The position numbers were made by a program, and so were the translations under genes. From NCBI GenBank assembly GCA_963575745.1, contig CAUYUJ010000001.1, forward strand, positions 620,001 through 684,000: a stretch of 64,000 nt of DNA, in the 5' to 3' direction. Positions 37,203 to 64,000 of this stretch are shown one piece after another (the stretch's first letter is position 1; each line of letters opens with the position of its first letter). The stretch is from Prorocentrum cordatum. Lineage: Eukaryota. Below the pieces are notes generated by a model. The model was not told the DNA's origin, ran no database searches, and saw nothing but the letters and a program-made list of their open reading frames with translations.

Positions 37203-39367
<2,165 letters not shown>

Positions 39368-41130: not shown

Positions 41131-41167
41131 GCCGAAGCCATCGCCATTTTTGTCTCAAGGCTCAGGC
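41131..41167 (+). other. Degenerate nested DinoSL relics
   Basis: GCCGAAGCCAT + CGCCATTTTTGTCTCAAG + GCTCAGG, compared with DCCGTAGCCATTTTGGCTCAAG. Confidence 0.65.
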
Positions 41168-41200
41168 CGTCGTGGCCCGGGGGCCCTCCTTGCGCGCGCC

Positions 41201-44483: not shown

Positions 44484-45251
44484 TCCAGGCGAAAGACCCA
44501 ACCATATGCAGTTGTGAGTACCGCCAGTGTAAGGCACGCCATCGGTGGAGCTCCTGACGGAGCCGCGAAATGTTTGAAGAGAGTTGGGGGATGTCCCAAA
44601 GTCAGGGGGTGGCGGCATGCGGGCGCAGCCATTGGGGCCTTGGGTGGAGCTCCCTGTGGGGCCACGAAGCGTGTGAGGGGCGTGCCAAAGTGAGGGGGTG
44701 GCGGCATGCGAACACAGCCACTAGGTTCTTAGGTATAGCTCCCTGTGGGGCCACGAAACATGTGAGGGGTGTGCCACAGTGAAGGGGGTGGCGGCATGCG
44801 AGAGCAGCCACTGGTGCCTTGGGTGGAGCTCCCACGTGGGCCACGAAACGTGTGAGGGGTGTGCCAACGTGCGGGGGTGGCGGCATGCGGGCGCAACCAC
44901 TGGGGCCTTAGCAGTAGCTCCCTATGGGGCCACGAAGCGTGTGAAGGGTGTCCCAAAGTCAGGGGGTGGCGGCATGCGGGCGCAACCACTGGGGCTCAGG
45001 TGTAGCTCCCTATGGGGCCGTGAAGCGTGTGAGGAGTGCGTCAAAGTGAGGGGGTGGTGGCATGCGGGCGCAATCACTGGGGCCTTATGAGTAGCTCCTT
45101 ATGGGGCCGTGAAGCGTGTGAGGGGTGTGCCAAAGTGGTGAGGGGTGACGGGAGGAGGAGTGCGGAGGAGGAGGAAGGTGGAGAGGAGAGGAGGAGACGC
45201 GGGGCGCTGTCTCGTCGAAAGGGGGAACCAACACCACCGGATGGTTAGGAT
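44484..45251 (-). mobile_element. Same tandem-repeat element family, ~89-bp units
   Basis: Terminal modules at 44484-44525 and 45200-45250. Confidence 0.6.
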
Positions 45252-45260
45252 AACCAACAA

Positions 45261-46610
45261 TAGCCTGGCGAAAACCCAACCATATGCAGTTGCGGGTACC
45301 GCAAGTGTGAATATCTTCTTCGGTGGCGCTCCCTATGGGGCCACGGAGTGCTGTACTGGGTGGGCGAAACGCAGGGAGCAAAGGCTGTGCTGGGTGGTGG
45401 CGGACGCATGCGGGCGGTGCCACTGGGACCTTCGGTGGAGCCCCCTTATGGGGCCACGAAGCGCTGTACTGGGTGGATGAGACGCAGAGAGCAAGGGCTG
45501 TGCCTGGTGGTGGCGGACGCATGCGGGCGGTGCCACTGGGACCTTCGGTGGAGCTCCTTATGGGGCCACGGAACGCTGTACTGGGTGGGTGAATCGAAGG
45601 GAGCAATGGCTGTACTGGGTGGTGGCGGACGCATGCGGGCGGTGCCACTGGGACCTTCGGTGGAGCCCCCAATTGGGCCACGAAGCGTTGTACTGGGTGT
45701 GTGAAACGCAGGGAGCAAGGGCTGTGCTGGGTGGTGGCGGACGCATGCGGGCGGTGCCACTGGGACCTTCGGTGGAGCTCCTAATGGGGCCACGAAGCGC
45801 TGTGCTGGGTGGGTGAAGCGCAGGGAGCAAGGGCTGTGCTGGTTGGTGGCGGACGCATGCGGGCGGTGCCACTGGGACGTTCGGTGGAGCTCGTTGTGGG
45901 GCCACGAAACGCTGTACTGGGTGGGTGAAACGCAGGGAGCAAGGGCTGTGCTGGGTGGTGGCGGACGCATGCGGGCGGTGCCACTGGGACCTTCCATGGG
46001 GCCCCCTTATGGGGCCACGAAGCGCTGTGCTGGGTGGGTGAAACGCAGGGAGCAAGGGCTGTGCTGGTTGGTGGCAGACGCATGCGGGCGGTGCCACTGG
46101 AACCTTCGGTGGAGCTCCATATGGGGCCACGAAACGTTGTACTGGGTGGGTGAAGCGCAGGGAGCAAGGGCTGTGCTGGGTGGTGGCGGACGCATGCGGG
46201 CGGTGCCACTGGGACCTTCGGCGGAGCCCCCAGTGGGGCCACGAAACGTTGTGCTGGGTGGGTGAAACGCAGGGAGCAAGGGCTGTGCTGGGTGGTGGCG
46301 GACGCATGCGGGCGGTGCCAATGGGACCTTCCTTGGAGTTCCTTCTGGGGCCACGAAATGCTGTACTGGGAGGGTGAAGCGCAGGGAGCAAGGGCTGTGC
46401 TGGGTGGTGGCGGACGCATGAGGGCGGTGCCACTGGGACCTTCGGTGGAGCTCCATATGGGGCCACGAAGCGTTGTGCTGGGTGGGTGAAACGCATGGAG
46501 CAAGGGAGGAAGGAGGGGAGGAGGGGGAGGAGGGTGACGAGGAGGAGAGGAGGAACGCGGGGACCGTCTCATCAAAACGAGGACCCAACACCACAGGATG
46601 GTTGGGAAAA
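45261..46610 (-). mobile_element. Same family, ~112-bp units, about 10 copies
   Basis: CCCAACCAT at 45275-45283 and ATGGTTGGG at 46598-46606. Units at 45421, 45533, 45646 and onward. Confidence 0.65.
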
Positions 46611-46862
46611 AAAACTCCAGCGACGGCCCCAGTGGCCGCGTTCGTCCGCCCCACCAAGCATAACGTTTCGTGGTCCCATAGAGAGCTCCAGCGAATCCCC
46701 CAGTGGCCGCGTTCGCATGCGCCCGCGCTACCCAGTACAGCGCTTCGTCACCCCAGCAAGAGCTCCACCGAAGGCCCCAGTGTCCGCGTTCGCCCGCCCC
46801 GCCCACGTTTCGTGGCCCCCTAGGGGGCTACACCGACTGCCGCAGAGGCCGCGTTCGCATGT

Positions 46863-48990
46863 GTCGGGGTGCCGGGGCGTGGAGAGGGGTCAGGGCAGGG
46901 GGTCGGGGTCGGTTCTGGGCGAGGAAGTCTCGGGTGGAGGATACCAAAAACAGAGAACCCGAGCGTGGAAGTGCCGGGGCGTGGCGACGGGTCACGGTGG
47001 GGGGTCGGGGTCGGGTCCAGGGGAGGAATTGTCTGGTGAAGGGTCCCAAGAACTGAGATCCATGCAGAGGGCGGAGGTGCCGGGGCGTGGTAAGGGGTCA
47101 GTGTGAGGGGTCGGGGTCGGTTCCAGGCGAGGAAGTGTTGGGTGGAGTGTCTCAAGAACAGAAGTCCAGAGGGTGGGGGTGCCAGGGCGTTGGCAGGAGT
47201 CAGGGTGGGGGGTCGGTGATCGGTATGGGGTCAAGAGTTGTCGGGTGGAGGGTCCCAGGAACAGTGGTCCAGACGTGGTGAGGAGTGAGGGTGGGGGTCG
47301 GGGTCGGTTCCAGGCGAGGAAGTGTCGATCGGGTGGAGGGTGCCAAGAACAGAACAGCGGTCCAGAGGGTGGGGGTCCTGGGGCGTGGTGAGGGGTCAGG
47401 GTGGGTGGTTGGGGTCGGTTCCGGGCGAGGAAGTGTCGGGTGGAATGTCTCAAGAACAGGGGTCAAGAGAGTGGAGGTGCCGGGGCGTGGTGAGGGGTCA
47501 GGGTGGGGGTCGGGGTCGGTTCCGGGCGAGGAAGTGCCGGGTGAAGGGGTCTTAAGAACAGAGGTCCAGAGGGCGGAGGCGCCAGGGCGTGGTGAGGAGT
47601 CAGGTTTGTTGGTCGGGGTCAGTTCGGTGTAAAACTTGTCGGGTGGAGCGTGCCAAGAGCAAGGATCCAGACGTGGTGAGGAGTGAGGGTGGGGGGTCGG
47701 GGTCGGTTCCAGGCGAGGAAGTGTTGGGCGGAGGGTCTCAAAAACAGAGGTCCAGAGGGTGGGTGCCGGAGCGTGGTGAGGGGTCAGGGTGGAGGGTCGG
47801 GGTCGGGCCCGGGCGAGGAAGTGGAACAGCGAACCCGAGGGTGGGGGTGCCGGGGCGCGGAGAGGGGGCGAGGAAGTGTCGGACGGAGGGTCTGAAGGAC
47901 AGCGGTCCAGAGCCAGGGCGCGGTGAGGGGTCAGGGCGGGGGGGTCCGGGAGGGTTCAGGGCGATGAAGTGTCGGGTGGAGGGTCCCAGAACCCGAGGGT
48001 CGGGGTGCTGGGGTGTGGGGAGGGGTCAGGGTGGGGGGTCGGGGTCGGTTCCATGCGAGGAAGTGTCGGGCGGAGGGCCCCAAGATCAGAGAGAAGAGCA
48101 TTCGGGTGGGGGTCCCAAAAACAAAGTTCCATGGTGGGGGTGCCGGGGCGTGGTGAGGGGTCAGGGTGGTGGTCGGGCTCGGTTCCAGGCGAGGAAGTGT
48201 CGGGTGGAGGGTCCCAAGAACAGAGGTCAAGAGAGTGGGGGTGCCGGGGCGTGGTGAGGGGTCAGGGTGGGTGGTTGGGGTCGGTTCCGGGCGAGGAAGT
48301 GCCGGGTGAAGGGGTCTTAAGAACAGAGGTCCAGCGGGTGGGGGTGCCGGGGCGCGGTGAGGGGTCAGGGCGGGGGGGTCGGGGGTCGGTTCCGGGCGAG
48401 GAAGTGTCGGGTGGAGACTCCGAAGAAGACCAGGGAACCCGAGGGTCGGGGTGCCGGGGCGTGGAGTGAGGTCAGGGTGGAGGGTCGGGGTCGGTTCCGG
48501 GCGAGGAAGTGTCGGGTGAAGGGTCCCAGGAACAATGGTTCAGGGGGTGGGGTGCCGGGGCGTGGTGATGTGTCAGGTTGGGGGTCGTTGGGCGAGGAAG
48601 TGTCGGGTGGAGGGCCCCAAGAACAGAAAGGAGTTGTCTGGGGGTGGCCTCAAGAACAAAGGTCCAGAGGGGGGGGGGGCCGGGGCGTGGTGAGGGGTGA
48701 GGGTGAGGGGTCGGGGTCGTTCTGGGCGAGGAAGTGTCGCGGGTGGAACGTCACAAGAACAGGGGTCAAGTGTGGGGGGGAACTTCCAGGGGAGGAAGTG
48801 TCCAGTGAACGGACCCGAGAACAGAGGTCCGGCGGGTGCGGGTGCCGGGGCGTGGTGAGGGGTTAGGGGTGGGGGTCAGGGTCGGTTCCGGGTGAGAGTT
48901 GTCAGGTGGAGGGTTCCAAGAGCAGAGGTCAGGAGGGTGGGGGTGCCGGGGCGCGGTGAGGGGTGAGGGTGGGGGATCGGGGTCGGTTCC
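46863..48990. repeat. G-rich ~90-bp satellite, more than 20 diverged units
   Basis: Recurrent ggggtcggggtcggttccgggcgaggaagtgtcgggtggagggtcccaagaac. Confidence 0.92.
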
Positions 48991-48994
48991 GTGA

Positions 48995-51664
48995 CAGCGG
49001 TCCTCCTGCAGGACCTCCCTGTCCAGGCGCGCCCCAGACTCGAGGGATGTCACTGGCCTCCCCACCCCGCTCTTTCGCGCGCTCGTCGGCCAGATAAGCG
49101 GAGAAGAGGCTGCCAGCAAGTGCGCCTCCCGGGACAGCCCGTGCTCCTGCGGTTTCAAAGCCGCGGTCGCCCCCGCTGGGCACCACGGCTGGTGGCGCCG
49201 TCTGTTCAGTTACTCCCCCTTCGGCGCATCCTGCGTCAAACACGAATGGCCATGCCTCGGCGCAGCGGTGGTCTCTCGGGCTGCTGAAGGAGAGATCCCC
49301 CCGCGGCACGGCACGTTCACCCTTGCGCAGCGCGCGGCGCTCGCCAGCGGTACCTGGGCCAAACCCGTCGCCAAAATGCGGGACCGTGCCATGACCCTCC
49401 AGCTTGCTTCGCCGTCCCCATCTCGGTCCGCCGCCGCGTGGAACGCCCACCTTGCCTCCCTCATCCCTTACCCAGCACGCTACATGGCCCCCGACGCGCC
49501 CCAGGAGCGCACGCTGAAGTCACAGCTAAGAGTGGCCTTCGGCCTTTCGGCCAGCTCCTGGGCACCCGACTGCGTCTCTGCAGGCCTCGGCATCCCGTTC
49601 CAGGTCCCTGGGTGCCCACGCTGCCCCGCTGTCCGCGCCCGCGCCATCGCAGCTCGCGCCAGCGCTCCACACGACGTCTGGGGACCTGCCCCTGCGCGGA
49701 AAAGGGCAGCCACACGGTGGAAGAAGCTCTGCGATTGGGCCGCCCGTACCCCGCATGACGTTCCCAACCCGCGCCCAGGCTCCAAGGTGCTCGCGTGCCA
49801 CAAGACCGCTCTTTTACTGCATCGGGCGAGGAACCCTCCGGGTCGGCCCGCAGGAACATGCTTTGGAAGGGTGGTCTACGCCGCCGCCTGGGGCCAGATG
49901 TACGGGGGCGCAGTCGCTGCCTGGATGCAGGGCGCCAGCGCCCGCAGAAGATGGGCCCCTGGCACCAACGAGGAGTGGAACCTACTACGCTACTGCACCT
50001 CTTTCACCGAAGCCCACCACGTCCTACGCTTCATCGTGAACGGGATGCCCGGGTCTGCCCGCTGGAGGGCCGCTGAAGACCGTCTGCCCTATACCTGCCA
50101 CAGGTGCGGCGGGGCTGCCCTGAGGGTGTGGTACACTCAGAGCCCAACCGCTGTCGGACACGCTTGGTGCTCCCCATGCCTGGGCCCCTGGGACCAGTCC
50201 CTCGCCCTTTGGTCTGCCATGGACCCTTCCCTCCTCCTCCCAGCACTCTGCCTGGCTGCGCTGCGCGCCCGGGGGGCGCGTCCTATCCTCGACACCCCGA
50301 CCGCGGGTGGGGCCTACGGCGCGTGCCCCCGATGCGGCCTCGGAGAGGCTACCACGGAACACCTTTGGTCTTGGTGCCAAGCCGTCGCACTCGCTTGGCT
50401 CCCCGCCAAGGCCAGCGAACACCCCGCCGACATTGGCACTGCCATACTCACCGACGGCGCCCATGAAGGGCTCGCTGCCCGCATCATTCACCAAGCCTCC
50501 TACCAGTGCTGCGTGGGCCTCGACGACTCTCCCCTTGACCCCACCGACGCAGCGCGCCTCCTCATACAGGGCCTTTTCTGTTGCGGACGCCGACCTGCAC
50601 AGCGATGAGGAGGCGGAAGAGGAGACCCCCGCCCAGGAACCTCAGCGGTACCGCGAAACGGCCGTCTGGGCCCCACCAACCGCATGCTGCATGGAATGCA
50701 ACCCCACCCACCCTGCGGCTGGTGCGGTACAGGGCGCTGCCCAGTACGGACCGCCGACCGGGCCGGCGGGGGCTCAAGACGATTCCCTGTCGCCGCCAGG
50801 CGGGCCCCTGCAGGCGCCCGCCTTGCATCCCTGCAGGCGGATGACCCACGGGCAGGCTGGCTTCTCCCAGGACGTGGGTGGTTCCCCTGCCCTTGTCCCT
50901 TTCGGCAGCCCTCCGCTCAATGGATTATGAGATATTGCACCACTTGCAACGCCCACACCCTCTCACTTACCGCTGCGCACGACCTTGCGCAGGGGGACGA
51001 GATCACGCTGGACCGCGCCCTCTTCCCCTCCGCCGAAGCCGCCTGCTGGCCATATGAGATCACCTTCGATGTTGGCGCCCGGTCGATCGATGGCGACCAG
51101 AGAGTCTCTGGCGCCGGAGCCCTGTTCTGGCACCACAACCCCCGACACGCCGCCCCCCAGCTGGCGGCCATGTCAGTCTTGGCCCTGCTGCGACGACGGC
51201 CAAACGGCAGAGGCCGCCTGCTGCAGGGCAGGCCTTGCCTTGCTCCCGCACGTCCCCGGGCCGATCCGGTCCGCTCGGGTGGTCGGAGACAACCTTGCCG
51301 CCATCAGGTACGGCGCAGGCACGGGCAGGTACCGCGGGCTCCACCTGCGCCAGCAAATGGACATGGCCCTTCGCCAAGCCAGCGAAGCCTGCTGGACACT
51401 CACCTGGCAGGCCGTGCGTAGACGACTCAACCAGGCGGCTGACCGCATCGCGACACTAGGGGTCTATTGGGCCGCAGCCCTACGGAGGGAAGGGAGTACC
51501 CGCCTCACCTGCCACACAGTCTGGCTTAACCTCCCCTCTCCCTCCCCGCCCCTCTTCCCCCCTCTGGCGGTCTCTTCGATCCCGACGCAGTTGCGTTTGC
51601 CACCGAGCGGTTGGAAAATGCGCGTTCTCTCTCCCCCCCCCGCGTACGATCCGGGGCGCTCTAA
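48995..51664 (+). pseudogene. 5'-truncated LINE ORF2 remnant: end of RT/thumb, CCHC knuckle, SET-like segment, RNase H
   Basis: WPCLG (49247) then TWAKPVAKMRDRA...AWNAHLASLIPYPA, which parallels ARCLG...QWRGPAVKWWGRV...TVLGYVGQ of the first LINE. CPRCGLGEATTEHLWSWC (50324). RNase H FDVGAR...GAGA (51065), AEA, VVGDN (51279), WQAVRRRLNQAAD (51429). Frameshifted. Confidence 0.85.
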
Positions 51665-53472
51665 GGCATTTGTGCGGGCGCCCGGCTCCTCACCATGGTC
51701 AGGAACCACCAGGGGCCCGTGGCCAGCTGGCCTAGCTGCTACAGCTACGAACCCGGGCCTCCCCTGGCCCCGGGGTCCACGGACGTTCACCTCTTCCAGG
51801 CCCGCCTCTGCCCGTGGGTGCGGTGGGTCTACTTCAACGGGCGCTGGTGCTTCTACTGCGAGCCGCGCCAAAAGGAAGTGTACGACAAGGACCACTTCAC
51901 CAGCCCTACCCACCTCCACGAGCTCGTGCGCCACCGGGGCGAAGGATGGTCCCACCCCAAGACCTACACATGCGAAGGCAACCTCTGGACCCGCCTGGCT
52001 GGCGGAACCAAAGACAAGGTCTCAGGGCAGATCGCTGAGCGCTTGCACTGGCCAGGCTGGAAGCTCCCGGAAGCCACGACTGTGGATGGCACTCGGCAAC
52101 TCAGGAACACCTGCTTCCCCGGCGACTGGGCCCACATCCCTACCAGCTACCCGCTGTCCATGATGGACTGGGACTACGCGTGCCCCCCCCGGCGCCGTGG
52201 TCGACCCCGCTGCGGCCCGGATCCCCAGCTTCGCTTCCCCCTGGCGCGACGACAGCGACCCGTCTCCGTCCGAGGACGTCCGTGCCATGACCGACGGCGC
52301 CGACCGGACTCGCAAGCCGCCGGCCACCCCCTGGCAGCGACCACTCGGCGCGGTCCCTGCCCTCCAGCCGCAGGGTACTCCCGCTAACCGACCCAAGTCC
52401 CCCGCTGGGCTCGCCGCCCCCCCGCCCAGGGGTGCGGCGCGGGCGCGTAGCCGCCCTTCCTTCAGCCCCAGGCCCCAGGGCGGGGACCCGCGCTCAGTCA
52501 TCTCTCAACTCCCCCCAGCTCGCCGCCGCGCTCGAAATCCAACAGCTGTTCGAGCACCCCGCATCACATCCCGCGGCCCGGATGCTCGCCAGGGTTCCCA
52601 TCTGTCGCATCCCGGGCACTGTCAACCTGCCCCCGGAGTGGCCCTGCGCCCTGAGAGACCGAGGCGCTCGCCTACAGCGCCTCCAGTGGATTGAGAGCAG
52701 AGCCCCCCTTGAACCCCGTGACGATGGGTCTGAACGGGCACGCAGTGAACTCCGGCGAAAGCAATCCGTCGCAGTGAACGCGGCAGTCACTGAGGTGGTG
52801 CAGCGCACGCGCCTGGGCGACCTTGACAAGCTTAAGGTCCACGAGAAGCTAAGGCCCAACGACAAGAGGACATGCTACCGCCTCGACTGGCCCCAAACCT
52901 ACCGCCTCCGGCACAGGAAGACAGACGGCCCCTGTTCGGGGCGTGTTGCCATCTCCCTGCGCGGCCCATCTTCCGACCATCTCGGCGAGATGGACGTGGT
53001 CTGGCCGGGCCTTCAAGAGCTTGGGCAAACGCTCTGCTTCGCTGAGTGCACGCGACTGCACCTCAACAAGGGAACCATATACCCCTCCAACACTTGCTCC
53101 GTGCAGTACAACCTCGAGAAGTTCGGCCCTTTCCACTTGGGGCGGTCGCAGGCGCCCCCCGTGGGCAAGGCGTCCGACCCCACGTGCCAAGTCGACAAGG
53201 CCCCGTCCGAGCCACAGTATTGGAAGCTCCACCACGCCATCGCGGAAATCTACATGCGCAGCTACGAACCGCAGGACCTCCTCGGCGTCCCCATTCCTGC
53301 CCTCGCGTTCACCCCGGAGTTCAGGAGCGCTGAGGTCGCCGACGAGCAGGCCGCCAACAAGGTGCAGCTCGGCCGCGACATCGGCATGGCACTCCGCCGT
53401 CGTGCAGCCCCCACTCTCAACGCTGCCATTCTGGATCCTGACACCGCCGACACGGCCTACCCCAGCATGGAG

Positions 53473-53663
53473 GGGTACCCCAGAGTTCGTAATAAAGGGA
53501 GGGGGGTCTCATTTCGGGGGGGGGGTCTCTTCCAGGCTATCTTGGAGGGCCTGGGGGGTCCGGGGACGATGTCTTGGAGGGCTCTCCCGCGGGGGAGGTC
53601 TGAAATGCCTTGTCTGGAAGGGTCCAGACCCCCTCCCTTTTTATTGCGAAATCTGGGGTACCC
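53473..53663. mobile_element. 191-bp MITE with ~38-bp TIRs and AG 2-bp TSD, inserted in the helicase ORF
   Basis: ag|GGGTACCCCAGAGTTCGTAATAAAGGGAGGGGGGTCT ... AGACCCCCTCCCTTTTTATTGCGAAATCTGGGGTACCC|ag. Removing it gives an open frame YPSME-FDVAALHAAR. Confidence 0.88.
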
Positions 53664-53968
53664 AGTTTGACGTGGCAGCACTGCACGCAGCTCGAACGCC
53701 CCGAGGCTGCTGGCCCCGCGCCGCCCCGCGGACACGCTGCCTGGGCGACCTCGGCGGTGAGACCTGCCAACCCCCTTCGGGGCCACCAGGCACGCGCAGT
53801 CGTCCCCCCTCCACACAGATGTCGCGTTGACCGACCACTTGGACGGACGACATCGACGATGACGCCGGGCAGGCTTTCCACAGCGTACCCGGCGCGCCCC
53901 GGTTCCGCTCCCCTGCTCGACCGCGCAGCCGCCGCGCACGGCCTCGACGACCTCTCCAGGCTGGTGCC

Positions 53969-54104
53969 CTCCTCCTCCTCCTCCTCCTCCTCCTCCTCCT
54001 CCTCTTCCTCCTCCTCCTCCTCCTCCTCCTCTTTCTCCTCCCCCTCCTCCTCCTCCTCCTCCTCCTCCTCCCCCTCCTCCTCCTCTTCCTCCTCCTCCTC
54101 CTCC
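53969..54104. repeat. (TCC)n tract of about 45 units inside the helicase ORF
   Basis: Direct inspection. Confidence 0.95.
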
Positions 54105-54127
54105 TGGACTCGCGCGTCCAGGCCGTC

Positions 54128-55830
54128 TTGAGCCAGACTTCGGTTTACCGTCCACTCCACGCGTGTAACTCTCGCCACCTCGCGTTGGTACACGTGCCGC
54201 CCGGCTCTGGGAAGACGACCACCATCGTGGCCCTGGTCTCGGCGTGGGCCCCCACCTTTCGCAGCGGCCAAACCGTGGGGGTCTCCTCGGGTGTCAACGC
54301 CGCTGCCGGCCAGCCCCTTAAAGCCTTCTTCGCCGCCGAGGAGAAGGGTCTGCTCGAGGACAGCATCGGCTTCCCCCGCGCCGTTGTTCGGCTCGCCCGC
54401 CGGGAGAAAGTCGATCGGGATCTGGTCCACCTCGCCCCAGAACGAAACTACCGCCCCCATGCGGGGCGTGCCCCCCTGCGCGCGGTGACAACACCGTGTT
54501 CAACTCCTACAAGAAGCAGCTGCTTCAACGAGCAGGCGCAGTCTTCGCAGCGCACGAAGCCGCCGCCGAGCTTGGCGGCACGGCCCCCCTCTGCCTCCCA
54601 CTGGGAGTGATCGACGAAGTTGGCCAAACGAACGAGGGGGGCACAGCCATGTCCCTGGTCCGCATCATACGCAGCGGTGGCCACCTCGCGCTTGTTGGCG
54701 ACCCCCAGCAGTTCCCCCCCACCGTCATGTCCAGGAAGGCAGCGGACATGGGCCTCGCCCCGTCTATCTTCCAGCGGCTCCACGACTCGCTTTGGGGCCA
54801 GACTGGAGATCAGAGGGGTGCCTGCATTGCCCTGCGCTGACTTGCCGCATGCACCCGTTCCTCATGTTCTTCCCCATCCAAGGCGTACTACCACAAGGCC
54901 TCCCTCACCGGGCTCACCAGCTCCCTCGCTGACCGGCCCCTGGTGCCACACCTGCCCTGGCCCACGGTGAAGGACCTCATTCCTAGGCAGCTCGAGTCCC
55001 TCGCGGGCGTCCTCGAGGTTCGTGCCGGGGACTTGAGGGACGACTGCGACGGGCTCCACCCCCACGTCCAAAACACGCACATGAACGACGCCCACCGCGC
55101 CCTGCTGGTGGATAACAAATCATATGAGCTCACGTCGCTCGTAGCAGAAGTCGATGCCTTCATTTCCGAGGCCGCCTTCACGGTCGACCTCGTGCGTACC
55201 CTCCTACCAGCACTGGAAGATGGTCTCACCGTCAAGGTCATTGTTCCCTACAGGCTGCAGAAGGGGATCCGCAGGGACGGGTGGCCGTTCAGCCCCCTCG
55301 CCCTGCAAATCGCAAGGAGAGACGACAAGAACACCGACAGGCCCGGCCCCGCCCCCCGCCCCCCCTGGCCCCCCTTGCGTCGCGTCGGATCGCGTCGCCG
55401 GGCGCCCCCGCTCGTCGCCGCCGTGACAGCGCCGACGCTCCCCCTTTCGCAGCCACCCCACAACGGAGCCGCTCACCCGCGACCTCGGTTCAGGCCTCCA
55501 CGTGCGCGGAGCGGACACGGTGCCTGGCCCCATGGACCCAGACTGCGCCCCCGAGCGGCAAGGACGGGGACATGTCTCCAGCTCTCTGCCCTCAGGTGCC
55601 GACGGCCTTCCCAAGCCTCCTCCAGGTTGCCCGCGAGCATCTTGCGTCGGGGCGGCTCACCGTATCCACGGTCGACGCCAGCCAAGGCGGCGAGGCTGAC
55701 CTGGTAATCTTCCTCACTGCGCGGTCCAACTCCAACCACGCGTGGGGGTTTGTGGACAGCCCTAACAGAGTCAACGTTGGGCTGGCACGCGCCAGGCGCG
55801 GACTCAAAGGGGACGGCCGCGTGATGGCCT
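54128..55830 (+). pseudogene. Upf1/DNA2/NAM7-like superfamily 1 helicase core
   Basis: Motif I PPGSGKTT (54197), II IDEVGQ (54613), III LVGDPQQFPPTVMS...GLAPSIFQRL, IV CRMHP (54843), VIVPYRLQ (55246), V TVDASQGGEAD (55668), RSN...GFV, VI NRVNVGLARAR (55773). Confidence 0.92.
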
Positions 55831-58800
55831 CCATGACCGACTCCAAGCCACGGCTCCTCTCCAATTGCGTGCGCGTCGCAGGCGTTTGGGTGCGTTTTCG
55901 CCCTAGCCACGGCCCCGGCGACCGCCCTGAGCTACGCGCCGACCCCTCCTTCGACCCCATCCACGACCCCGCCTGGACCGGACACCCTTGCCGCCGGCGA
56001 GGCGGCCGGGGCCGGAGTCCGGTCGACAGGGCCGTGGCCAAAAGGAGGGAGGAACACGCCAAGAGGTTCAACGCGCACTTCAGGCTGGGGATGACTTCCG
56101 CTGGGGCGACCACGGCCGCGAGATGGAGGCAGCATTGGAGAACCTCCTGACCGGCCCCGCGCTGCCCGTGGCCCTCTTCCTCGTTGCGGGGCTCCACCCC
56201 CGCAAGTGCAACTCCGAGGGAGCCCCCTCCGACCACGCGCAGTTCGATAGGGCAACCTGGAGCCACGTGGGGCGCCTGTTCGACGTCGGGATCGGACTCG
56301 ACGCGGACAACCTGGTATGCAACATAGCCTGGGCCCCCCTGGACTGGGGGGTCGGCCTGGGCACCCCCTGGGACCTCCCCCGGTGCCAGATCTGCCCCAG
56401 CGAGCTTCCCCCGCGCCCGCGCGCGCAGGGAAGAGCCGCGCGGCGACCCCAGAACAGAGGCCGCTGCGCCCCCGCGGATCTCCAACGCCAGACCCCCCAA
56501 GCATGGCCCGCCGGGACCAGACACTGCCCGCGACACCTCGTCTACCCCGGCTTCGACACCTTGACCGGCCTACTGCAGGGCCGCGACGAACCAGCCCAGC
56601 ACCGAGTCGACCTGCTCGACCCCCGCGACCACATTATGACAGCCGAGAGGGCCCGCTGTGCTCTCATCATCACGCTGCTCATGAAACGCGAGCCACGTGC
56701 GCACCTGGCCCTTCCGAGATCCCTCCGGGTCCGGAGACCCTTGAGGCCATCCTCGGGGTCTGCTGCCCTTGGCAAAACGACCACTCCCACTTTCGCGTTC
56801 GGTTCGCGGCGTGAGGGGGTCTCCCGCCTGCTGACCTCCGCCGGCTGCGCAGCCGACTCGAGTCCCTGATCGCTCTCGTGGACAAGCTTGTGGTTGTCGC
56901 TCACCAGCGCCCCGCCGCCAAATAAGCACAATGCCCAACTTGGAGAAGATCGTGAGGCCTGCCAACCTTGGCACCCTATCTCGGACAGAATGCAGCATCT
57001 GCGTCCTGCGCCGCGACCTCATAGGCAGCGACAGCGGCCTAGATCCCGACGACGCCCCCTCGGAGCTGACGTCCCTTGGCGGGGGGTTCTCTTTCGCTCA
57101 GATCCCCCTTGACAGGGCGCTGCCCCCCGCTCCACTTCCCAGCGTGACCAAGACACCCTGCTACCTGGCCCCTGGCGACGCCCGTGGGGGCCTTCCCCCT
57201 GGCGACACCCTGGCACCCTGACGACGCCCTTCCGATTCAGCCCTGATCGGAAGACGGCTAGGGGTCGGTGCGACCAATGCTTCAAAGGCACCTTCAGGCA
57301 CACCGAGGGCACGTGTCTTCACGACACCGTCCGCTCGTACCTGGCGCAGAACCGCCTGCAGGCGCACGCTAGCGGGTTAGACTGCGCATGGATGTGCGGC
57401 CAATGCTGGGTGCAAGAGGTAGAAAAGCAGGGGTGCCAAGTCCCCCCTGGGCAGGCCGTCCACGGGCAGATGCAAGCTCTCACGCTGGCCAGAAAACCCA
57501 CCGGGCCCCCTCCCGTGGATGCCTTACCCCCGACCGCCTCCCAACGCGCGCACCCGGCGCTGCCCCCCACCGTGCCCCCTGGTGTCCTCGAGGAATTCTT
57601 GTTGGGGCCGGCGGGCCTCCAGGTGCTTAGGACTGCAAACACCGCCCGACCGCCTACCTGGCCGGAGGGCGACAGATTCGGTTGCACAGCATCGGAGACC
57701 GGTCGCCGCGCTGCGACGTGCGACGGCTGCCCCCCCGGAGCCCCTGTTCTCGTCTGGCAGGCCGGAACCCTAGCGTTCGGTTGGTGTTTCATGGATGTGC
57801 GTGACGCGGGCGCCGGAGGACTCCCCACATTGGGGGGTCGCGTTGTGGCCTGGCATAACCGCAGGTGGGATGCAGCGTGGATGCGCCGCCGGTGCCTCGT
57901 CCACGCATGGGGCGACCGACCCAGCATTGTCGAGGTGCTCCTCGACCGCGACGCCCACCTGATTTACCTTGGCCCTCCCAGTTCGAAGCCGCGCACCGCC
58001 CCCCTGTGCCGGGCGAGCCATCGTTGGCCCACGCACTAGCACCCAACCGCGCCTCTGCAACGAGGCCAGACGCTTTCAGCAAGAGTGGCCTTCACCTCAC
58101 CCTCTTTCCCCCCGACCAATACGGGGGGCCCCCCACAATGCGCGGTGCCGTGGAGATTCGCAACCTTCGTCCCCGCGCTGATCCCCCCAACGGCCTTGCG
58201 CTGGCACGCGTCGGCATCGACGACCTGCAGGCCGCCGCCGAAGACGGACACAACCGCCCGGATGTGAAGCCCATCGAGGCTTGGATGGTCGACTTCCTAC
58301 GCGACCTGGACCCAACCCTGGGCGACCTCTGGAAGGATTTTGTCGCAGTGCAAGGCGGGGGCGTCAAGGGCGCCGAGTGGCCAGACAACTGGGGGCCGTG
58401 CTCGCTCCGCCCTTTCCTAAAGAAAATCTACGGCGACAGAGCCGCGCCAGACTACCTCCCCACCGATTTTTTCTGGCACGGTAAGCGGCTCGCTGCCGCC
58501 CGCGTGGTCGCTCACCTCTGCGTCCACTCCGCTGGCGGCCCGCTGCGTGCCAAATGGCTCCAGCACGCCAACCAATGGCCCGTGCGCGGTCCTTCCCCGC
58601 CCCGCCGCGCGCTGGGGCGCCCATGTGGGGTTCCTGAGTCAGGTCAGCCCCGACTTGCTTGCCTCTGGGTCGTTCTGCGAGTTGGCCAAGGACTGTCCTT
58701 TCGAACACGCGCAGGAACTACGCAGGCAGCTCGAGAACACCCTCACCAGGGGGCACAGCGACAACGAGTGGTTGAAGCAAATCAGCGACGAGCGAAGGGT

Positions 58801-61659
58801 GACAACCGACCCACCCGCTGAGTTCCACACTTTTCCCGGCCACTCGTACGACCCGCCAGACTGCGGCAACCCTGCGCTCTCCCCCGTCGACGCCCGCGCG
58901 GAGTGGAACCAGCCCTCCCCGCGCTTGTTGGGCCAGCCCCCGCTCCCCTGCAGGCGGCCGCCCGCCGCTGGCGAGCTCGGCCGCCGAAGACCCCGCCGCC
59001 GGTGCAGCGCCCCCGGACACGTCTCCCCCGCGTAAACCTAGTGCAGCGGGCGTCCCTCTCCCCAGCAGGGGCGACGGCGCAGCTACCCACGGCGATGCCG
59101 TCTCCGACGCATCCGCGGCTGACTCACAGGCCGCTGACGCCCAACCCGCCCCACCCCCTCGTGTGCGAAAAGGGGCCTCGGTTGCCCTGTCCCCGGCCCA
59201 CAGCTCGGGCCCGCCCATCCTGCGAGTCGACTCCCCCCGCAGCCCTGAGGTGGCAGCCAGGCCCTGCAGCCCCGCGTCCCCGGCGGACGACCCTAGCGAG
59301 TCTCCAGAGCTCGCGGACAGGACGACAGGAGGCTGAACTGCCCCTCCGATCGAAGGGCCCCGCCATCCCCCAGCGCCCCCACCCCGGCGCAGCCCTGGAC
59401 GGACACCGCGGCACGGGACGAGCGCGGCTGGGGCGAGGGCTGGGGTGAGCGCCGTCCACGTCGACATCGCGAAACCAGCCGCAGTGGCCCCTGCAGCGGC
59501 AGCTGGCCTGGATGGTCGGGCTGGGCCAGCTGGGCGGCCAGCGACCGCTGGAGTCGGACCCCGCACGCCCACGCACCCTCCTTCCCCGACGACAACCCAG
59601 CACCCCGGGCCGCCCCGTGGCCCCCCTACGAGCACGCGCAAGCCGACCCCTCACAGGACCTGGTCGACCCCCTCACTGGCCCTTGCTTGTGACACCTCGG
59701 ATCTGGAGTGGGCCCAGCTCCCCCCGCCCCATGGCGAGGCCCTGGCCGAGACTCTGAAGCGGCTCCAGAAGGATCTAGGAGAGTACTTCAACGGGGTCTG
59801 GTGCCAGTGGACTGCCAAGCACCCCGCCAAGTCCGGCTACATCTGCGCGGAAGCAGGAGCCTGATTCATGCAGGCGCTTCCTCCGTGAGTGGCATCGCCA
59901 TAACTGGACGAGGCGCGACGCCGCGGTCCGCGGTAGGCTCACGGACAGGGCCGAGGGCAAGGGCGCCCTGGGCAAAGCCAGAGGCAAGGGGCACCGGGAG
60001 GGCACGACCCCAGCTTGACAAGGTCGGGGTGCCACCTGCTGAGCCAGGAGCTCGCGCCAGCCCTGGGTATAGTCCTAATGTCCTCTCACGGGTCCCCACC
60101 CCCCGCTTCCACTGTTTGGCATCCCATGCGACGCGCCAGGGCCAAGTGCCTTCCCGCGCTCGGCACCGGTACTTCCCATGTCGATGCGAACGACCTTCCT
60201 CTGGGGCCTGCCTCAGGCGGGGCCCCCTTGGCGCGCCCGGCCGGGGCTGTCGGCTCGTCCCTGGCAATCAGGAGATCCAAATCCTAGACCCCGCTTTGCG
60301 GCCTCTCGCCCCCTGGATGACCGCCGCCCCCCCCTGGCCCGCCCTTGGCGCAGCCTCGGGGCCTGGTCCCCGCCCAAGCGGGCCACCTGTGCTGCTCGGC
60401 CCCATCGCGACACCACTTGCGGCCCAGTGCTGCCCTGCACTTCGACGTCGTTGGCTGCGCCCCCGACGCCTCCCAGCCTCTTCTCAGCGCCGCCGGGGGG
60501 CCGCTCGTCGCCTCTCACCCCGCCTGCCCCTTTGTCACCCGCCATTGCGCGACTGTTAGTCACCGCCTGCCACCGCCTCCCCCGCTCTGTCTGGCCTCCC
60601 CACACTCTGGCGCGGCTGCCGCCGCCGCCCCGCGCCCGCCCCCCGCCCACTTCCTGGTCCGCGCCACCCACGGATGCTTTACATATTCTGCAGCTGTTAG
60701 CTGCTGCCCCCCGCCCGCCCCCCGCCCGCCCCCTTGCCCCCGCCCCCGACGCCCTTCCGCCATGTGACTCAATTTCGCGCGACTGTTAGTCGCTTTCCCG
60801 GCCCTTCTTCCCGGCCCTTCTCCCCCCCGCGCGGCCTGCGTCGCCGCTGTTGCCCGGCCGGGGGTGCCGGGGCCCACCCGCCGCCTGGCCGTGGCCTGCC
60901 GCCCCCCGCCGCTCCCCGCCTCCACTGGCGCGCCCCCCCTGGTCCGCGACGCCCCCCCTGGGGCGCCGGGGCCTTGTGCCGGTGGCCCCGCCGGACTGCG
61001 TGGACTGGTCCCCCGCGCCGTCGCCGCCCGACTTAGTGCCGGCGCCTCTGCCTGGGGCTATCGCTCGTTCTGGAGCGCGCCGTTCGCTCTGCCGGGCTGC
61101 CTCGCCGATTGGGCGCGCATTGGCTGGTGGGCGCCTCCCTCAATGCCGGTCTGCGCCCCTACTGCGCCTGGCGCGCCCCTCCCTCGCGAGAGAGGTGGCT
61201 CGTGGCACCGCGCTCTGCCGCCCGCGATGGGTCGCTGACCTGGCTGACGACCCCCGCTGCGGTTCCGCCTTGCCGTCCATTCGCTTTTCCGTGGTCGCCG
61301 AGCACTTGCGCGCCGCCTGACCTGCTCGGTCCTTTTCCTGGACCTGGTCACGTTCTGATTCATCAGCCGTTTTGGTGTGCATCGAGGTCGCCCTGGCCTT
61401 CGTCGGCTTCAGCTTGAACCACCTGTTCGCCAGCGTCGGTTTCGCCTCCTGAGTGGAAGCGTAGACCGCTCCTGTTGCTGAGGGGCTAATTTAGCCCGCT
61501 GCTCGTTAGCTGCGCGTTGACTTGACGCCGTGCGATGTGTCGCGACGGTCGCGATCAAGGAAGTGCCCCCACCATCCCATCCAGAAGCGATGCCCATGAG
61601 AGCTGACGGGGGAGAGAGGTCGAGACATATAGTCAAGCAGCGCGGGCAACAAGAGTGAA

Positions 61660-62470
61660 TGTGGGTGCCTCGGGGATCCTCTTGAGGCCTCTTGGGGGCC
61701 TTTTGGGGGGCCTTTTGGGGGCCTCTTGGAGGCCTCTTGGAACCGTCTGGGCGCCTCTTGGGGCCGTCTGGGCGCATTTGTGGGCCTTTCTTGGGGCGCT
61801 CTCGGGGGCCTTGGGGGCGGTCTTGGGGCCATCTTGGAGAAGATCGATCAAAGAAGGGGGGGTCTCCAATTAGGCTCCCCGTTCGGGAGCGCCGACAATG
61901 GCTCCTGAATGGGCCCCTTCTGGCGCGCTCTTGGAGCGCTCTTGGGCGTTCTTGGGGCCGTCTTGGGGCTCTCTTGGGCCCCGAAGGGAGAGGTCGCTGC
62001 CTCTCGAGAGCCCCCCAAGTCGCCTCTTGGAGCGCTCTTGGGGCGCTTTTGGAGCGCTTTTGGGCGCTCTTGGGGCCGTCTTGGGTCTCTCTTGCCCCTT
62101 GTAGGGGCTATCTTGGGACATTTTGGAGCTAGGTTGATGCTTCGGATGGGCATTGGAAGCGCACAGGCGAGAACGCGAAACACATTGATTTCCCTGCAGG
62201 TTTTGAAGCATTTTGGCCTGTTGGGGGCATCCTTGGGGAGCTCTTTCGGCCACTTGGAGCCGTCATGTTGCGGTCTTGGAGCGTCTTGGGGCATTTTGGG
62301 AGCTATCTCGAGGCATCTTGCGCTATCTTGAGCCATCTTGGCGGTCATATTGGGCTTTCTGAGGCCCTCTTGGAACCAACTTGGGTGAAAAACTACCCTC
62401 TGACACCTCGCGGCGCCCCCCGTCCAGGCCCAGGGGAGGGGGTAGGGGGAGGGGTCAAGTCACCCCCTCC
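61660..62470. repeat. Dispersed GGCCTCTTGG-rich repeat family; related blocks at about 17170-17580 and 39880-40500
   Basis: Recurrent tcttggggcc / ggcctcttgga motifs. Confidence 0.7.
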
Positions 62471-62596
62471 CCGCCCGCAAGCCGTCTCGCTCACTCCCAC
62501 CCACCCTCCCAACACGAACGTAGCACCCGAGTCTGGCCCGAGCATCAGCATATATTCAGCAGTCGTCTTGGGATGGGGAGCTACTGGGGGCCAATC

Positions 62597-62677
62597 CGCC
62601 GCCGCCGCCGCTGCGTCCGCTGCGTCCGCCGCCGCCGCCGCCGCCGCCGCCGCTGCCCGCCGCCGCCGCACCCGCCA

Positions 62678-62708
<31 letters not shown>

Positions 62709-62794
62709 CCCCGCTGCCAAACCGCCGCCGCAGCCGCAGCCGCTGCCGCCACCGCCCCTGCGCGCAGCCGCCGCAGCCGCCCCGCCGCGCCGCC

Positions 62795-62834
<40 letters not shown>

Positions 62835-62916
62835 AGCCGCCGCCGCAGCCGCCGCCGCCGCAGCCGCCGCAGCCGCCGCCGCCGCCGCCGCAGCCGCCGC
62901 AGCCGCCGCCGCCGCC
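62597..62916. repeat. (GCC)n microsatellite
   Basis: Direct inspection. Confidence 0.95.
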
Positions 62917-63409
62917 AAGTGTACTCTGTATTGTTTTTTGATAGGGATGGTCGGGGGGGGGGCCGCATCGGGTTGGCTGCGCATGTTCCGAATTTGGAGG
63001 CAGAGTGTGTTTTGCATTGTTTTTTGCAAGGGATGGTGGGGGGGGGGGGGGTCGGCATGGACTCGGGTTGGCCCCCAGTCGCCTGGGGGGGGGTGTTTAT
63101 TAATAGGGAGCAGTGATTAACCCCTTCCCGAAGGGGATAAACGAGGGGTGGAAAAGGAAACGCTCTAAACCACCGGCGCCCAGAGGGCTGGTGGGATTTT
63201 TGGTTCCAGGCACATCAAAGAGATTTCGAAACTGAGGACTGAGGCTCGGTGTATTGGGCACACGACTTGGGGACGCGCCCACTCCGTGCCCAGAGGCACG
63301 GTGGCGGATTATTGAACACTTGGTTACGTATTAAGACTTTCTTCTCGTACTGTGCATGTGCTGCCTTTCGGTACGACAGGGGCACGCAACTGGAGCAATG
63401 TACAACGTG

Positions 63410-63980
63410 GTCTTGGGAGCGCGAATATGGTGCAAATTACGGGTTGGCGTAACTTACGACAAATATGGCCTCGAACGCGAATCTGGTGTAATTCGCCAGG
63501 GGGCATGGTTTCGGGGGCGCGAATCTGGCGCATCTTTCCAGGGATCATTGCCCAGGGAACGCGAATCTGAAGTAGTTTGCGCGGTGTTGTGGCTTCGGGG
63601 GCACGAATCTGGCATTCCTTACGTGGGATTACTGCCTCGGGAGCAGGACCCTGGTGTAATTTATACAGGGTTCTAGGCTCGGGGGCGCGAGTTGGGCGCG
63701 TAGTGCAGAGAGGGCGTCTGGCCTCGGGAGCGCGAATCTGGCGTAGCTTATGTGGAATTCGGGCTTCGGGAACGCGAATCAGTCGTAGTTTACGCTGTGT
63801 TGTGGCCGTTGGAACGCAATTGTAGCACTCTTTAATCGGGACTCGAATCTGGGTCAAATTGCAAGGAGTTGAGTTTGGCGTCGGGGGGGCGAGCGCGGCG
63901 TACATAGGACGGGATCTGGCTTCGGGGGCGCAGATCTAGGGTATTTCAATTGGCTTCTGGCCTTGGGAACGCGAATTTTG
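63410..63980. repeat. Degenerate ~42-bp tandem repeat
   Basis: Recurrent cgggagcgcgaatctgg at ~42-bp spacing. Confidence 0.85.
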
Positions 63981-64000
63981 TGTATGTATATATTACGAGG

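What the first reader, a model, noticed from the sequence alone, without database searches (positions are those of the whole stretch)
48995..59864. Candidate giant LINE carrying a downstream ORF3 with a Upf1-like RNA helicase
Seen: a LINE ORF2 tail (RT end, CCHC, RNase H) probably stops near 51664. A caccATGG at 51695 then opens, on the same strand, an ~8-kb coding-like region with no evident introns and a similar level of decay. It contains a zinc finger CEP(R)QKEVYDKDHFTSPTH, a ~330-aa pre-helicase region where Upf1-family stalk/1B domains would lie, all diagnostic Upf1-like helicase motifs in order, and further CxxC-rich modules. Established: LINEs normally end shortly after ORF2; dinoflagellate host genes are typically intron-rich; Upf1-like helicases (MOV10, Armitage, SDE3, Upf1) act in host RNA surveillance and retroelement restriction. 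The SF1 helicases I know from insect non-LTR elements are of viral type. Inference: this is one element of more than 11 kb that captured a surveillance-type helicase as cargo, for RNP remodelling or as a counter-silencing factor.
Basis: partly seen in the sequence, partly recalled or inferred. Interest (0 to 1): 0.9.

Follow-up and report, generated by a model that had tools for sequence, protein, structure and literature searches.

The report
Dinoflagellate LINE with helicase third ORF
This is a dead, front-truncated copy of a dinoflagellate jumping gene (LINE) whose family carries, right after its reverse-transcriptase gene, a very large extra gene for a Upf1-type RNA helicase, an arrangement I did not find described.

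Summary
Window 48995-51664 (+) is the last ~830 codons of a LINE ORF2 (CCHC knuckle, RNase H). It is 44-49% identical to two intact 1791/1811-aa environmental proteins with endonuclease, RT and C-terminal RNase H. ORF2 stops at 51662-64. An ATG at 51695 opens a coding-like stretch that runs to the TGA at 59862-64. It holds a C2H2-type finger, a ~400-aa family-specific domain, and a Upf1-like SF1B helicase with motifs I-VI (Pfam AAA_11/AAA_12; best solved match human UPF1). A ~3.7-kb tail follows.

The copy is decayed: about 20 frame switches, one MITE-like insertion and a (CCT)46 array.

The ORF2-to-ORF3 junction recurs. A metagenome contig (L001) has the ORF2 tail, a stop, about 250 bp, then an ORF3 homologue starting at the same conserved Met. 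A Prorocentrum cordatum gene model joins LINE-tail and ORF3 pieces. ORF3 fragments lie on nine P. cordatum contigs.

So the one-element reading is supported. Capture from a host surveillance gene, and any function, are untested. I found no 3' end or target-site duplication, and saw no intact full-length ORF3. Six literature searches found no such LINE.

The parts
48995..51664 (+). 5'-truncated tail of LINE ORF2, equal to residues ~907-1811 of intact relatives. It begins ~30 aa after the RT YVDD box. It has one in-frame TGA at 50606-08, frameshifts near 51185 and 51575, and a TAA stop at 51662-64.
50096..50377 (+). Cys/His knuckles of the ORF2 tail: CHRC...CSPC (50096-50179) and the CCHC motif CPRCGLGEATTEHLWSWC (50324-50377). 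Both are conserved in P0026/P0027.
   Evidence: no Pfam hit
51059..51470 (+). RNase H-like domain of ORF2, split by a frameshift near 51185. The second half is 73% identical to P0026.
   Evidence: motif reading by eye, no Pfam hit
51665..51694 (+). 30-bp spacer between the ORF2 stop and the ORF3 start. It is preceded by a CT-rich tract. The spacer is ~250 bp in L001.
51695..52230 (+). ORF3 N-terminus (frame 2). The start Met is conserved with P0025 and L001. A C2H2-type finger lies at 51848-51913, with its second Cys changed to Arg in this copy.
52237..53487 (+). Family-specific pre-helicase domain of ORF3 (frame 1). It has no Pfam or PDB match. A phmmer search of 1.84 billion representatives found 24 relatives.
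53473..54105 (+). Disruption of ORF3: a 191-bp MITE-like insert with 34-nt inverted ends (53473-53663), ~170 bp of unassigned sequence, then (CCT)46 at 53968-54105. Short ORF3 remnants sit at ~53831-53965.
54113..56092 (+). Upf1-like SF1B helicase core of ORF3 with motifs I-VI in order, spread over three frames (at least 4 frameshifts).
56093..59864 (+). Coding-like C-terminal region with Cys-rich stretches (e.g. 57269-57409). Segment 58285-58840 is 62-80% identical to P0028, which bridges a window frameshift near 58620. TGA stop at 59862-64. It may be the rest of ORF3 or a further ORF.

Best explanation
Window 48995-59864 (+) is one decayed, 5'-truncated insertion of a dinoflagellate non-LTR retrotransposon family. 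The closest named relatives are in Prorocentrum cordatum.

The full-length unit holds an ORF2 of ~1800 aa: endonuclease, RT, Cys/His knuckles and a C-terminal RNase H. After a 30-250-bp spacer comes a separate, very large ORF3. ORF3 encodes an N-terminal C2H2-type zinc finger, a ~400-aa domain unique to this family, a Upf1-like (SF1B, AAA_11/AAA_12) helicase, and a long C-terminal region.

Shown here: the gene order, its recurrence in other loci, the conserved ORF3 start, all helicase motifs, and the truncation pattern.

Inferred, not shown: the element is transcribed as one RNA. ORF3 is translated by reinitiation, or after spliced-leader trans-splicing at the CT-rich tract plus AG upstream of its ATG. 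ORF3p is a 5'-3' RNA or RNA:DNA helicase that works on the element's own RNP during or before target-primed reverse transcription. It would then be an element-encoded counterpart of the host UPF1/MOV10 that bind human L1 RNPs. The window copy itself is non-functional.
For: 1. ORF2 identity. The 537-aa open frame 48995-50605 hits P0026 (E 3e-159, 53% identity, 96% coverage) and P0027 (E 3e-144, 48%). These were 2 of the 3 hits among 7999 scored candidates. They carry Exo_endo_phos_2 and RVT_1 and a YVDD box, and they end just after the RNase H-like domain.

2. Recurrent junction. Of 596 pattern matches in metagenome contigs, 1 was confirmed: L001. It holds the ORF2 tail at 1-2619 (62% identical to P0027), a stop at about 2640, then an ATG at 2891 that opens a stop-free frame to the contig end. 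That frame matches P0025 residues 1-181 at E 5e-31, and also matches P0006 and P0004. L001 against the window gives 43%/57% identity in ORF2 and 34.5% in the ORF3 N-terminus, so it is a separate lineage.

3. P0004, a P. cordatum gene model, contains a LINE-tail piece (81% identical; equivalent to window ~49900-50107) followed directly by ORF3 pieces that map to 51701-56087 at 53-85% identity.

4. ORF3 is a family. The search returned 24 relatives: 9 P. cordatum models on 9 different contigs, 11 from EukProt EP00959, 3 ENA and 1 Logan. 4 of the 24 also carry AAA_11.

5. P0025 (1038 aa, intact) starts at the same Met. It has the finger, the pre-helicase domain and the helicase.

6. Helicase. AAA_12 scores 50.7 bits and AAA_11 30.6 bits. 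The P0025 core is closest to human UPF1, E 6.8e-11.

7. Extent and geometry. Coding periodicity runs from 49005 to ~59850 and stops on both sides. The copy begins inside ORF2 directly after a satellite array.

8. The ORF2 family looks recently active elsewhere. 6 of 12 and 4 of 6 members of the two 90%-identity clusters are full length.
Against: - Only three loci show the junction. One of them (P0004) is inferred from a gene model, not from DNA I could read.
- L001 covers just 252 codons of ORF3 and does not reach the helicase.
- L001's ORF2 tail has one in-frame TAA.
- No intact full-length ORF3 was seen. P0025 stops at 1038 aa, inside the helicase. None of the 24 relatives exceeds 1656 aa.
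- The DNA of the 18-27-kb contigs that hold intact ORF2s could not be read.
- No target-site duplication, poly(A) or other 3' end was found, so the unit's ends are undefined.
- The RVT_1 and Exo_endo_phos_2 scores of P0026/27 are below Pfam's gathering cut-offs (23.9 and 28.6 against 29.6 bits; 20.4 against 27.4 bits).
- The ORF2 tail and the RNase H of the window get no Pfam hit at all.
- Linking the last 3.7 kb to ORF3 rests on periodicity and one homologue.
- Nothing here bears on expression or function.
Confidence: 0.78

Rival explanations
1. Chance neighbours. A decayed helicase pseudogene, or a retrocopy of a host gene, happens to lie just downstream of an unrelated 5'-truncated LINE fragment.
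For: The window has no second copy of either part. No element ends were found. The window is rich in unrelated repeats and TEs.
Against: The same order and orientation, with ORF3 starting 30-250 bp after the ORF2 stop, is seen in L001. It is also implied by P0004. There is no DinoSL relic at or near ORF3. ORF3 is multi-copy and decayed, like a TE: 9 P. cordatum contigs.
Confidence: 0.04
2. ORF3 is a separate mobile or multi-copy unit. It could be a non-autonomous element or a host gene family that this LINE targets, or that inserts after this LINE. It is therefore often adjacent to the LINE but not part of it.
For: No full-length element with defined ends has been seen. Most ORF3 relatives are fragments whose upstream DNA I could not read. 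The intact ORF2 proteins end without a helicase.
Against: In 3 of the 3 loci where both the ORF3 start and the upstream sequence are visible, the LINE ORF2 tail lies directly upstream in the same orientation (window, L001, P0004). The 30-bp spacer in the window leaves no room for a 3' UTR plus tail of one unit and a 5' end of another. ORF2 and ORF3 have diverged in parallel between the window and L001.
Confidence: 0.1
3. The helicase ORF is the first ORF of the next element in a head-to-tail array. The true order would then be helicase ORF followed by ORF2.
For: Some LINEs form tandem arrays. No ORF1 of this family has been identified here.
Against: After the helicase region the window turns non-coding (59989-62500). 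No endonuclease-RT ORF follows. The spacer is only 30 bp, with no tail. The copy is truncated inside ORF2 and complete from there through the helicase region, which fits ORF3 being 3' of ORF2.
Confidence: 0.04

Closest known systems
Insect TRAS/R1 and Jockey LINEs carrying a viral-type SF1 helicase domain (Lazareva et al. 2015, PMC4686597, abstract seen; Morozov et al. 2017, PMC5563155, passages; Morozov et al. 2019, PMC6338049, passages)
   Same: A non-LTR retrotransposon that carries an accessory superfamily-1 helicase downstream of the RT and zinc-knuckle region. The element is multi-copy in the genome. Proposed roles include help with reverse transcription, RNA quality control or counter-defence.
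   Different: In the insect elements the helicase is of plus-strand RNA virus (tobamo/alpha-like) origin and is fused to the C-terminus of ORF2. Here the helicase is of the cellular Upf1-like type (AAA_11/AAA_12; no viral helicase family was hit). It sits in a separate ORF of ~2500-2700 codons with its own conserved start, a zinc finger and a novel ~400-aa domain. The host is a dinoflagellate.
Upf1-like SF1B helicases (UPF1/NAM7, SEN1/senataxin, IGHMBP2/SMUBP-2, MOV10, ZNFX1)
   Same: Pfam AAA_11 plus AAA_12, with motifs I-VI in order. The best solved matches are UPF1 (E 6.8e-11), NAM7, SEN1 and SMUBP-2. An N-terminal zinc-binding module lies ahead of the helicase, as in UPF1. That UPF1 has one is stated for the family in PMC5563155; any likeness of the two modules is untested.
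   Different: It is not an orthologue of any of these. The E-values are weak and the ranking changes with the query. No CH domain, NFX1-type fingers or other family-specific accessory domain was detected. The pre-helicase domain matches no known family. The gene is encoded by a retrotransposon and is multi-copy.
Human LINE-1 RNP with host UPF1 and MOV10 (PMC5821459 and PMC9442310; titles and abstracts seen)
   Same: A LINE RNP associated with Upf1-like helicases. This is the functional analogy proposed for ORF3p.
   Different: In L1 the helicases are host proteins, partly restrictive. Here the helicase is encoded by the element itself. No interaction was tested.

Membership tests
Non-LTR (LINE) retrotransposon, APE type | Reverse transcriptase domain with a YxDD box | tested here: met
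   Met in the intact relatives only. RVT_1 E 1.4e-6 (P0027) and 3.8e-5 (P0026), both below Pfam's gathering score. PF00078 is precomputed for P0027. YVDD is visible in alignment A3. The window copy lacks the RT core because it is 5'-truncated ~30 aa after YVDD.
Non-LTR (LINE) retrotransposon, APE type | N-terminal apurinic-like endonuclease | tested here: inconclusive
   Exo_endo_phos_2 E 5e-4, 20.4 bits against a cut-off of 27.4, in P0027 only (1 of 2 relatives). Absent from the window copy because of the truncation.
Non-LTR (LINE) retrotransposon, APE type | 5' truncation of copies, multi-copy family | tested here: met
   The window copy starts at relative residue ~907 of 1811. The ORF2 clusters have 12 and 6 members on separate contigs.
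Non-LTR (LINE) retrotransposon, APE type | Defined 3' end (poly(A) or simple repeat) and target-site duplication | tested here: not met
   Between 48941-49030 and 59865-62700 there was only one 12-nt G-rich match, and no A or T runs. The upstream flank is satellite, so the test is weak. The 3' end is undefined.
Upf1-like SF1B helicase | AAA_11 plus AAA_12 domains with motifs I, II, III, IV, V, VI in order | tested here: met
   AAA_11 30.6 bits and AAA_12 50.7 bits, both above the cut-off of 27. Motif coordinates. Best PDB matches are UPF1/NAM7/SEN1/SMUBP-2.
Upf1-like SF1B helicase | Stalk and 1B accessory domain ahead of motif I | tested here: inconclusive
   No Pfam hit even at E<=1 in the 22 family members scanned. 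Only sub-threshold Atlas leads, scores 0.77-0.80, to UPF1_1B, SMUBP-2 1B, ZNFX1 and DUF6469 clusters.
UPF1 proper (NMD factor) | CH zinc-knuckle domain and orthology to UPF1 | tested here: not met
   No CH-domain family hit. Identity is limited to the RecA core. The gene is multi-copy and linked to a TE.
ZNFX1-type helicase | NFX1-type zinc fingers C-terminal to the helicase | tested here: not met
   No zinc-finger family in any C-terminal ORF at E<=5. No PDB match.
Insect helicase-bearing LINEs (viral SF1H) | Alpha-like viral helicase fused in frame to the ORF2 C-terminus | tested here: not met
   The Pfam hits are cellular AAA_11/AAA_12. ORF2 of the relatives ends before the helicase, and ORF3 has its own Met.

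The most novel reading that the evidence does not exclude
Dinoflagellates harbour a lineage of giant LINEs: at least ~14 kb from ORF2 plus ORF3 alone, and still active in some species. These LINEs encode their own Upf1-like RNA helicase as an obligatory third ORF. They would thus supply in cis the kind of helicase that mammalian L1 RNPs take from the host (UPF1/MOV10). ORF3 may be expressed through spliced-leader trans-splicing of the polycistronic element RNA. It would be the first retrotransposon known to carry a cellular-type Upf1-family helicase.
Probability: 0.45. Interest if true: 0.8.

Novelty: new variant of a known kind. Interest (0 to 1): 0.65.

Why it matters
LINEs are normally minimal: one or two ORFs, and heavy reliance on host factors. 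A family with a conserved third ORF of ~2500 codons built around a Upf1-type helicase would widen the known coding repertoire of non-LTR elements.

It would also make a question testable. Human L1 RNPs bind the host helicases UPF1 and MOV10. Do Upf1-like helicases help LINE replication or only restrain it?

It bears on genome annotation too. In the very large, TE-rich P. cordatum genome, at least nine gene models labelled 'unnamed protein' or 'DNA2/NAM7 helicase domain-containing protein' appear to be fragments of this element rather than host genes.

Tried and rejected
- Whole genome: none is held, so no genome-wide copy census was possible.
- The search for homologous proteins on the ORF2 tail with 'near' lengths: no hit. 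The 'longer' setting was needed.
- Pfam on 30 upstream + strand ORFs (38861-49284): no RT. The region just upstream, 45318-48993, is satellite.
- Pfam on 35 minus-strand ORFs across the region: 0 families.
- Rfam over 44000-64000: 0 matches. tRNA scan: 0 genes.
- Metagenome scan with the ORF3 alignment A2: 275 pattern matches, none confirmed.
- Viral contigs with A3 and A2: 94 and 50 pattern matches, none confirmed.
- Genome contigs with A3: 37 pattern matches, none confirmed.
- Sequencing runs: none was listed, and no RNA holder was listed. Read laying could therefore not be used.
- Earlier findings of this scan: nothing by place, by sequence or by words.
- Target-site duplication and 3' tail search: nothing convincing. 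Junction DNA alignment of window against L001: conservation only from the ORF3 start onward.
- C-terminal region: no Pfam, PDB or useful Atlas match.
- Pre-helicase domain: no Pfam or PDB match. The Atlas gave scores of 0.80 or less, which are leads only.
- A 21-nt match between the ORF3 N-terminus (51830) and its C-terminal end (59784) is at the level of the other chance repeats, and I dropped it.
- Literature: searches found no LINE with a cellular Upf1-like helicase or a helicase ORF3. The library is open-access only, so this is not proof of absence.

Full report
CONTEXT. The window is dinoflagellate DNA. An exact 21-nt DinoSL spliced-leader relic lies at 962-982, where 0 matches are expected by chance. 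The motif is confirmed in the text of PMC6050394. The closest named relatives of the region's proteins are Prorocentrum cordatum gene models. No whole genome is held for this window. G+C is ~68% across the region, so long open frames occur in all six frames and mean little on their own.

THE ORF2 TAIL (48995-51664, +). Directly upstream, 45318-48993 is made of tandem arrays of 112-bp and ~102-bp units. At 48995 a 537-codon open frame begins.

- Pfam sees nothing in it, and a 'near'-length protein search found nothing.
- The 'longer' search returned 3 hits among 7999 scored candidates. P0026 (1811 aa; E 3e-159; 53% identity over 96% of the query) and P0027 (1791 aa; E 3e-144; 48%) come from unnamed ENA assemblies. 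The third is the P. cordatum model P0004 (81% identity over 14% of the query).
- P0026/P0027 carry RVT_1 (E 3.8e-5 and 1.4e-6, both just under Pfam's gathering score). P0027 also carries Exo_endo_phos_2 (E 5e-4). Both have a YVDD box and a long Cys/His-rich tail, and both end shortly after an RNase H-like domain.
- tblastn maps P0026 residues 934-1661 to window 49028-51187 (49% identity, frame 2), and residues 1662-1775 to 51183-51524 (73%, frame 0).

So the window holds the last ~45% of such an ORF2, starting ~30 residues after the YVDD box. That is a classic 5' truncation. The tail has one in-frame TGA (50606-08), frameshifts near 51185 and 51575, and a TAA stop at 51662-64. I identify them by alignment to the relatives and by eye, not by a profile hit.

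ORF3 (51695 to ~59864, +). Thirty bases after the ORF2 stop, caccATGG opens a frame.

- The N-terminus holds a C2H2-type finger: C-E-P-C-Q-x(5-11)-H-F-x-[SC]-x2-H in the relatives. In this copy the second Cys is Arg (51848-51913).
- After a frameshift near 52200 comes a ~400-aa domain (52237-53487) with no Pfam or PDB match.
- A phmmer search of the frame that holds this domain, against 1.84 billion cluster representatives, found 24 proteins at E<=1e-3 (9 at <=1e-10, 4 at <=1e-30).
- By the sources' own labels, 9 of the 24 are P. cordatum models on nine different contigs, 11 are from EukProt set EP00959, 3 are ENA and 1 is Logan.
- 4 of the 24 also carry AAA_11, so this domain is continuous with the helicase in other copies.
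- The helicase core follows, broken over three frames: motif I at 54197, II at 54607, III at 54697, IV at 54843, V at 55668 and VI at 55773.
- Pfam gives AAA_11 (30.6 bits) and AAA_12 (50.7 bits, E 2e-13); 3 of the 18 ORFs scanned had any hit.
- Solved structures rank UPF1/NAM7 first for the window fragments and for the intact relative P0025 (human UPF1, E 6.8e-11). A family profile ranks SEN1 first. NCBIfam gives a sub-threshold IGHMBP2-family hit.

It is therefore a Upf1-like SF1B helicase that cannot be placed in a named subfamily.

Between the pre-helicase domain and motif I the copy is disrupted. There is a 191-bp insert with 34-nt inverted ends and a palindromic GGGTACCC at both edges (53473-53663), then ~170 bp of unassigned sequence, then (CCT)46.

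THE C-TERMINAL 3.7 KB. A codon-usage Viterbi path trained on the homology-supported segments calls 49005-59988 coding-like, with about 20 frame switches. It calls 48000-49004, 53479-53951 and 59989-62500 non-coding. GC3>GC1>GC2 holds in 15 of the 17 path segments, while both flanks are flat at 0.65-0.70 in all three phases. The two exceptions, 58980-59673, are Pro-rich low complexity. One homologue was found among 5955 candidates. P0028 (186 aa) is 80% identical over 111 residues and reads straight through a frameshift of the window near 58620. The last frame ends at TGA 59862-64. No family or structure matched this region. Whether it is in frame with the helicase in intact copies is not known.

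IS IT ONE ELEMENT? Three lines say yes.

(a) A metagenome scan with an ORF2 alignment confirmed 1 of 596 pattern matches: contig L001 (3647 bp). It shows the ORF2 tail (62% identical to P0027; one in-frame TAA), the ORF2 stop near 2640, and then an ATG at 2891. That ATG opens a stop-free frame to the contig end, which matches P0025 residues 1-181 (36.5% identity, E 5e-31), P0006 and P0004. L001 is only 43-57% (ORF2) and 34.5% (ORF3) identical to the window, so it is an independent lineage in which the two ORFs have stayed together.

(b) P0004 joins a LINE-tail piece to ORF3 pieces that map along window 51701-56087. So a second P. cordatum locus has both, in the same order.

(c) The start Met and the following N-x-G-P-x-x-x-W-P motif are shared by the window, L001 and the intact 1038-aa P0025. 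ORF3 is therefore a discrete, conserved ORF and not read-through junk.

The geometry also fits: truncation inside ORF2, then everything 3' of it present, then non-coding DNA. The rivals fare poorly. No DinoSL relic lies near ORF3. The 30-bp spacer leaves no room for two element ends. No endonuclease-RT ORF follows the helicase region.

LIMITS. I read the junction DNA in only two loci. L001 stops before the helicase. No intact full-length ORF3 was seen, and the longest clean relative ends at 1038 aa. The DNA around the intact ORF2s could not be read. No 3' end or target-site duplication was found. No sequencing run was listed, so nothing can be said about expression or copy number from reads.

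MECHANISM (INFERRED). ORF2p would carry out target-primed reverse transcription. ORF3p, by family membership, would be a 5'-3' RNA or RNA:DNA helicase/RNPase with a zinc-finger nucleic-acid-binding head. The most economical role is remodelling of the element's own RNA/RNP: unwinding the template, removing proteins, or handling the RNA:DNA hybrid together with RNase H. A counter-defence role is equally untested. Both copies have a CT-rich tract followed by AG upstream of the ORF3 ATG. In a dinoflagellate this could serve as a spliced-leader acceptor and give a separate ORF3 mRNA. This is speculation, with a clear test (step 3 of the next steps).

COMPARISON AND NOVELTY. The nearest described case is the group of insect TRAS/R1/Jockey LINEs whose ORF2 is fused to a helicase of RNA-virus origin (PMC4686597 abstract; PMC5563155 passages; PMC6338049 passages). 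Here the helicase is of cellular Upf1 type. It lies in its own giant ORF with novel domains, and the host is a dinoflagellate. Host UPF1 and MOV10 associate with human L1 RNPs (PMC5821459 and PMC9442310; titles and abstracts), which makes an element-encoded Upf1-like helicase an interesting parallel. Six full-text searches and a look through a dinoflagellate genomics review (PMC11453091, passages) found no description of such an element. The library is open-access only. I rate it a new variant of a known kind: a LINE with an accessory helicase.

VERDICT. The single-element reading is supported at about 0.78. Capture from the host and any function remain open. This particular copy is dead.

Noticed in passing
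window 961-6574 (+): A complete DinoSL relic (T+CCGTAGCCATTTTGGCTCAAG, 961-982) is followed at once by an ATG (983) and an uninterrupted 1864-codon ORF. The ORF has Exo_endo_phos (E 1.4e-8) and RVT_1 (E 1.2e-15). It looks like an intact LINE of a different family (only 25% identical to P0026 in the RT) whose 5' end carries a spliced leader. No ORF3-family match lies downstream of it.
   Followed up: partly
window 704-859 and 6612-6767: The intact LINE above is flanked on both sides by (CTC)n plus a ~100-bp unique stretch. The two flanks are 80% identical over 156 bp. This could be insertion into a repeated unit, a very long duplication, or part of a tandem arrangement.
   Followed up: partly
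window 53473-53663: A 191-bp MITE-like insertion inside ORF3. It has 34-nt terminal inverted repeats (82% complementary) and the palindrome GGGTACCC at both edges. There is no other copy in the window.
   Followed up: partly
window 44588-48993: G-rich satellite arrays (89-bp, 112-bp and ~102-bp units) with strong positive GC skew abut the truncated 5' end of the LINE.
   Followed up: no
window 13643-15094 (+): Copia-type RT fragment (RVT_2, E 7.9e-6, below the gathering score).
   Followed up: no
window 53968-54105; 62596-62916; 61678-62094: Long microsatellites: (CCT)46 inside ORF3 and (CCG)~107 downstream. There are also arrays of an 11-bp CTCTTGGGGCG-like unit.
   Followed up: no
proteins P0009, P0010, P0013-P0016, P0018, P0021-P0024, P0028: Twelve fragments of this ORF3 family (11 plus P0028) come from EukProt set EP00959, which its source labels Pyramimonas sp. 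CCMP1952, a green alga. Identities to the window run from 26% to 80%. Either that data set contains dinoflagellate-type sequence, or the family is wider than dinoflagellates. I could not tell which.
   Followed up: no
P. cordatum models P0001-P0005, P0007, P0008, P0012, P0017: Nine public gene models appear to be fragments of this retroelement's ORF3, not host genes. One is named 'DNA2/NAM7 helicase helicase domain-containing protein' in UniRef.
   Followed up: partly
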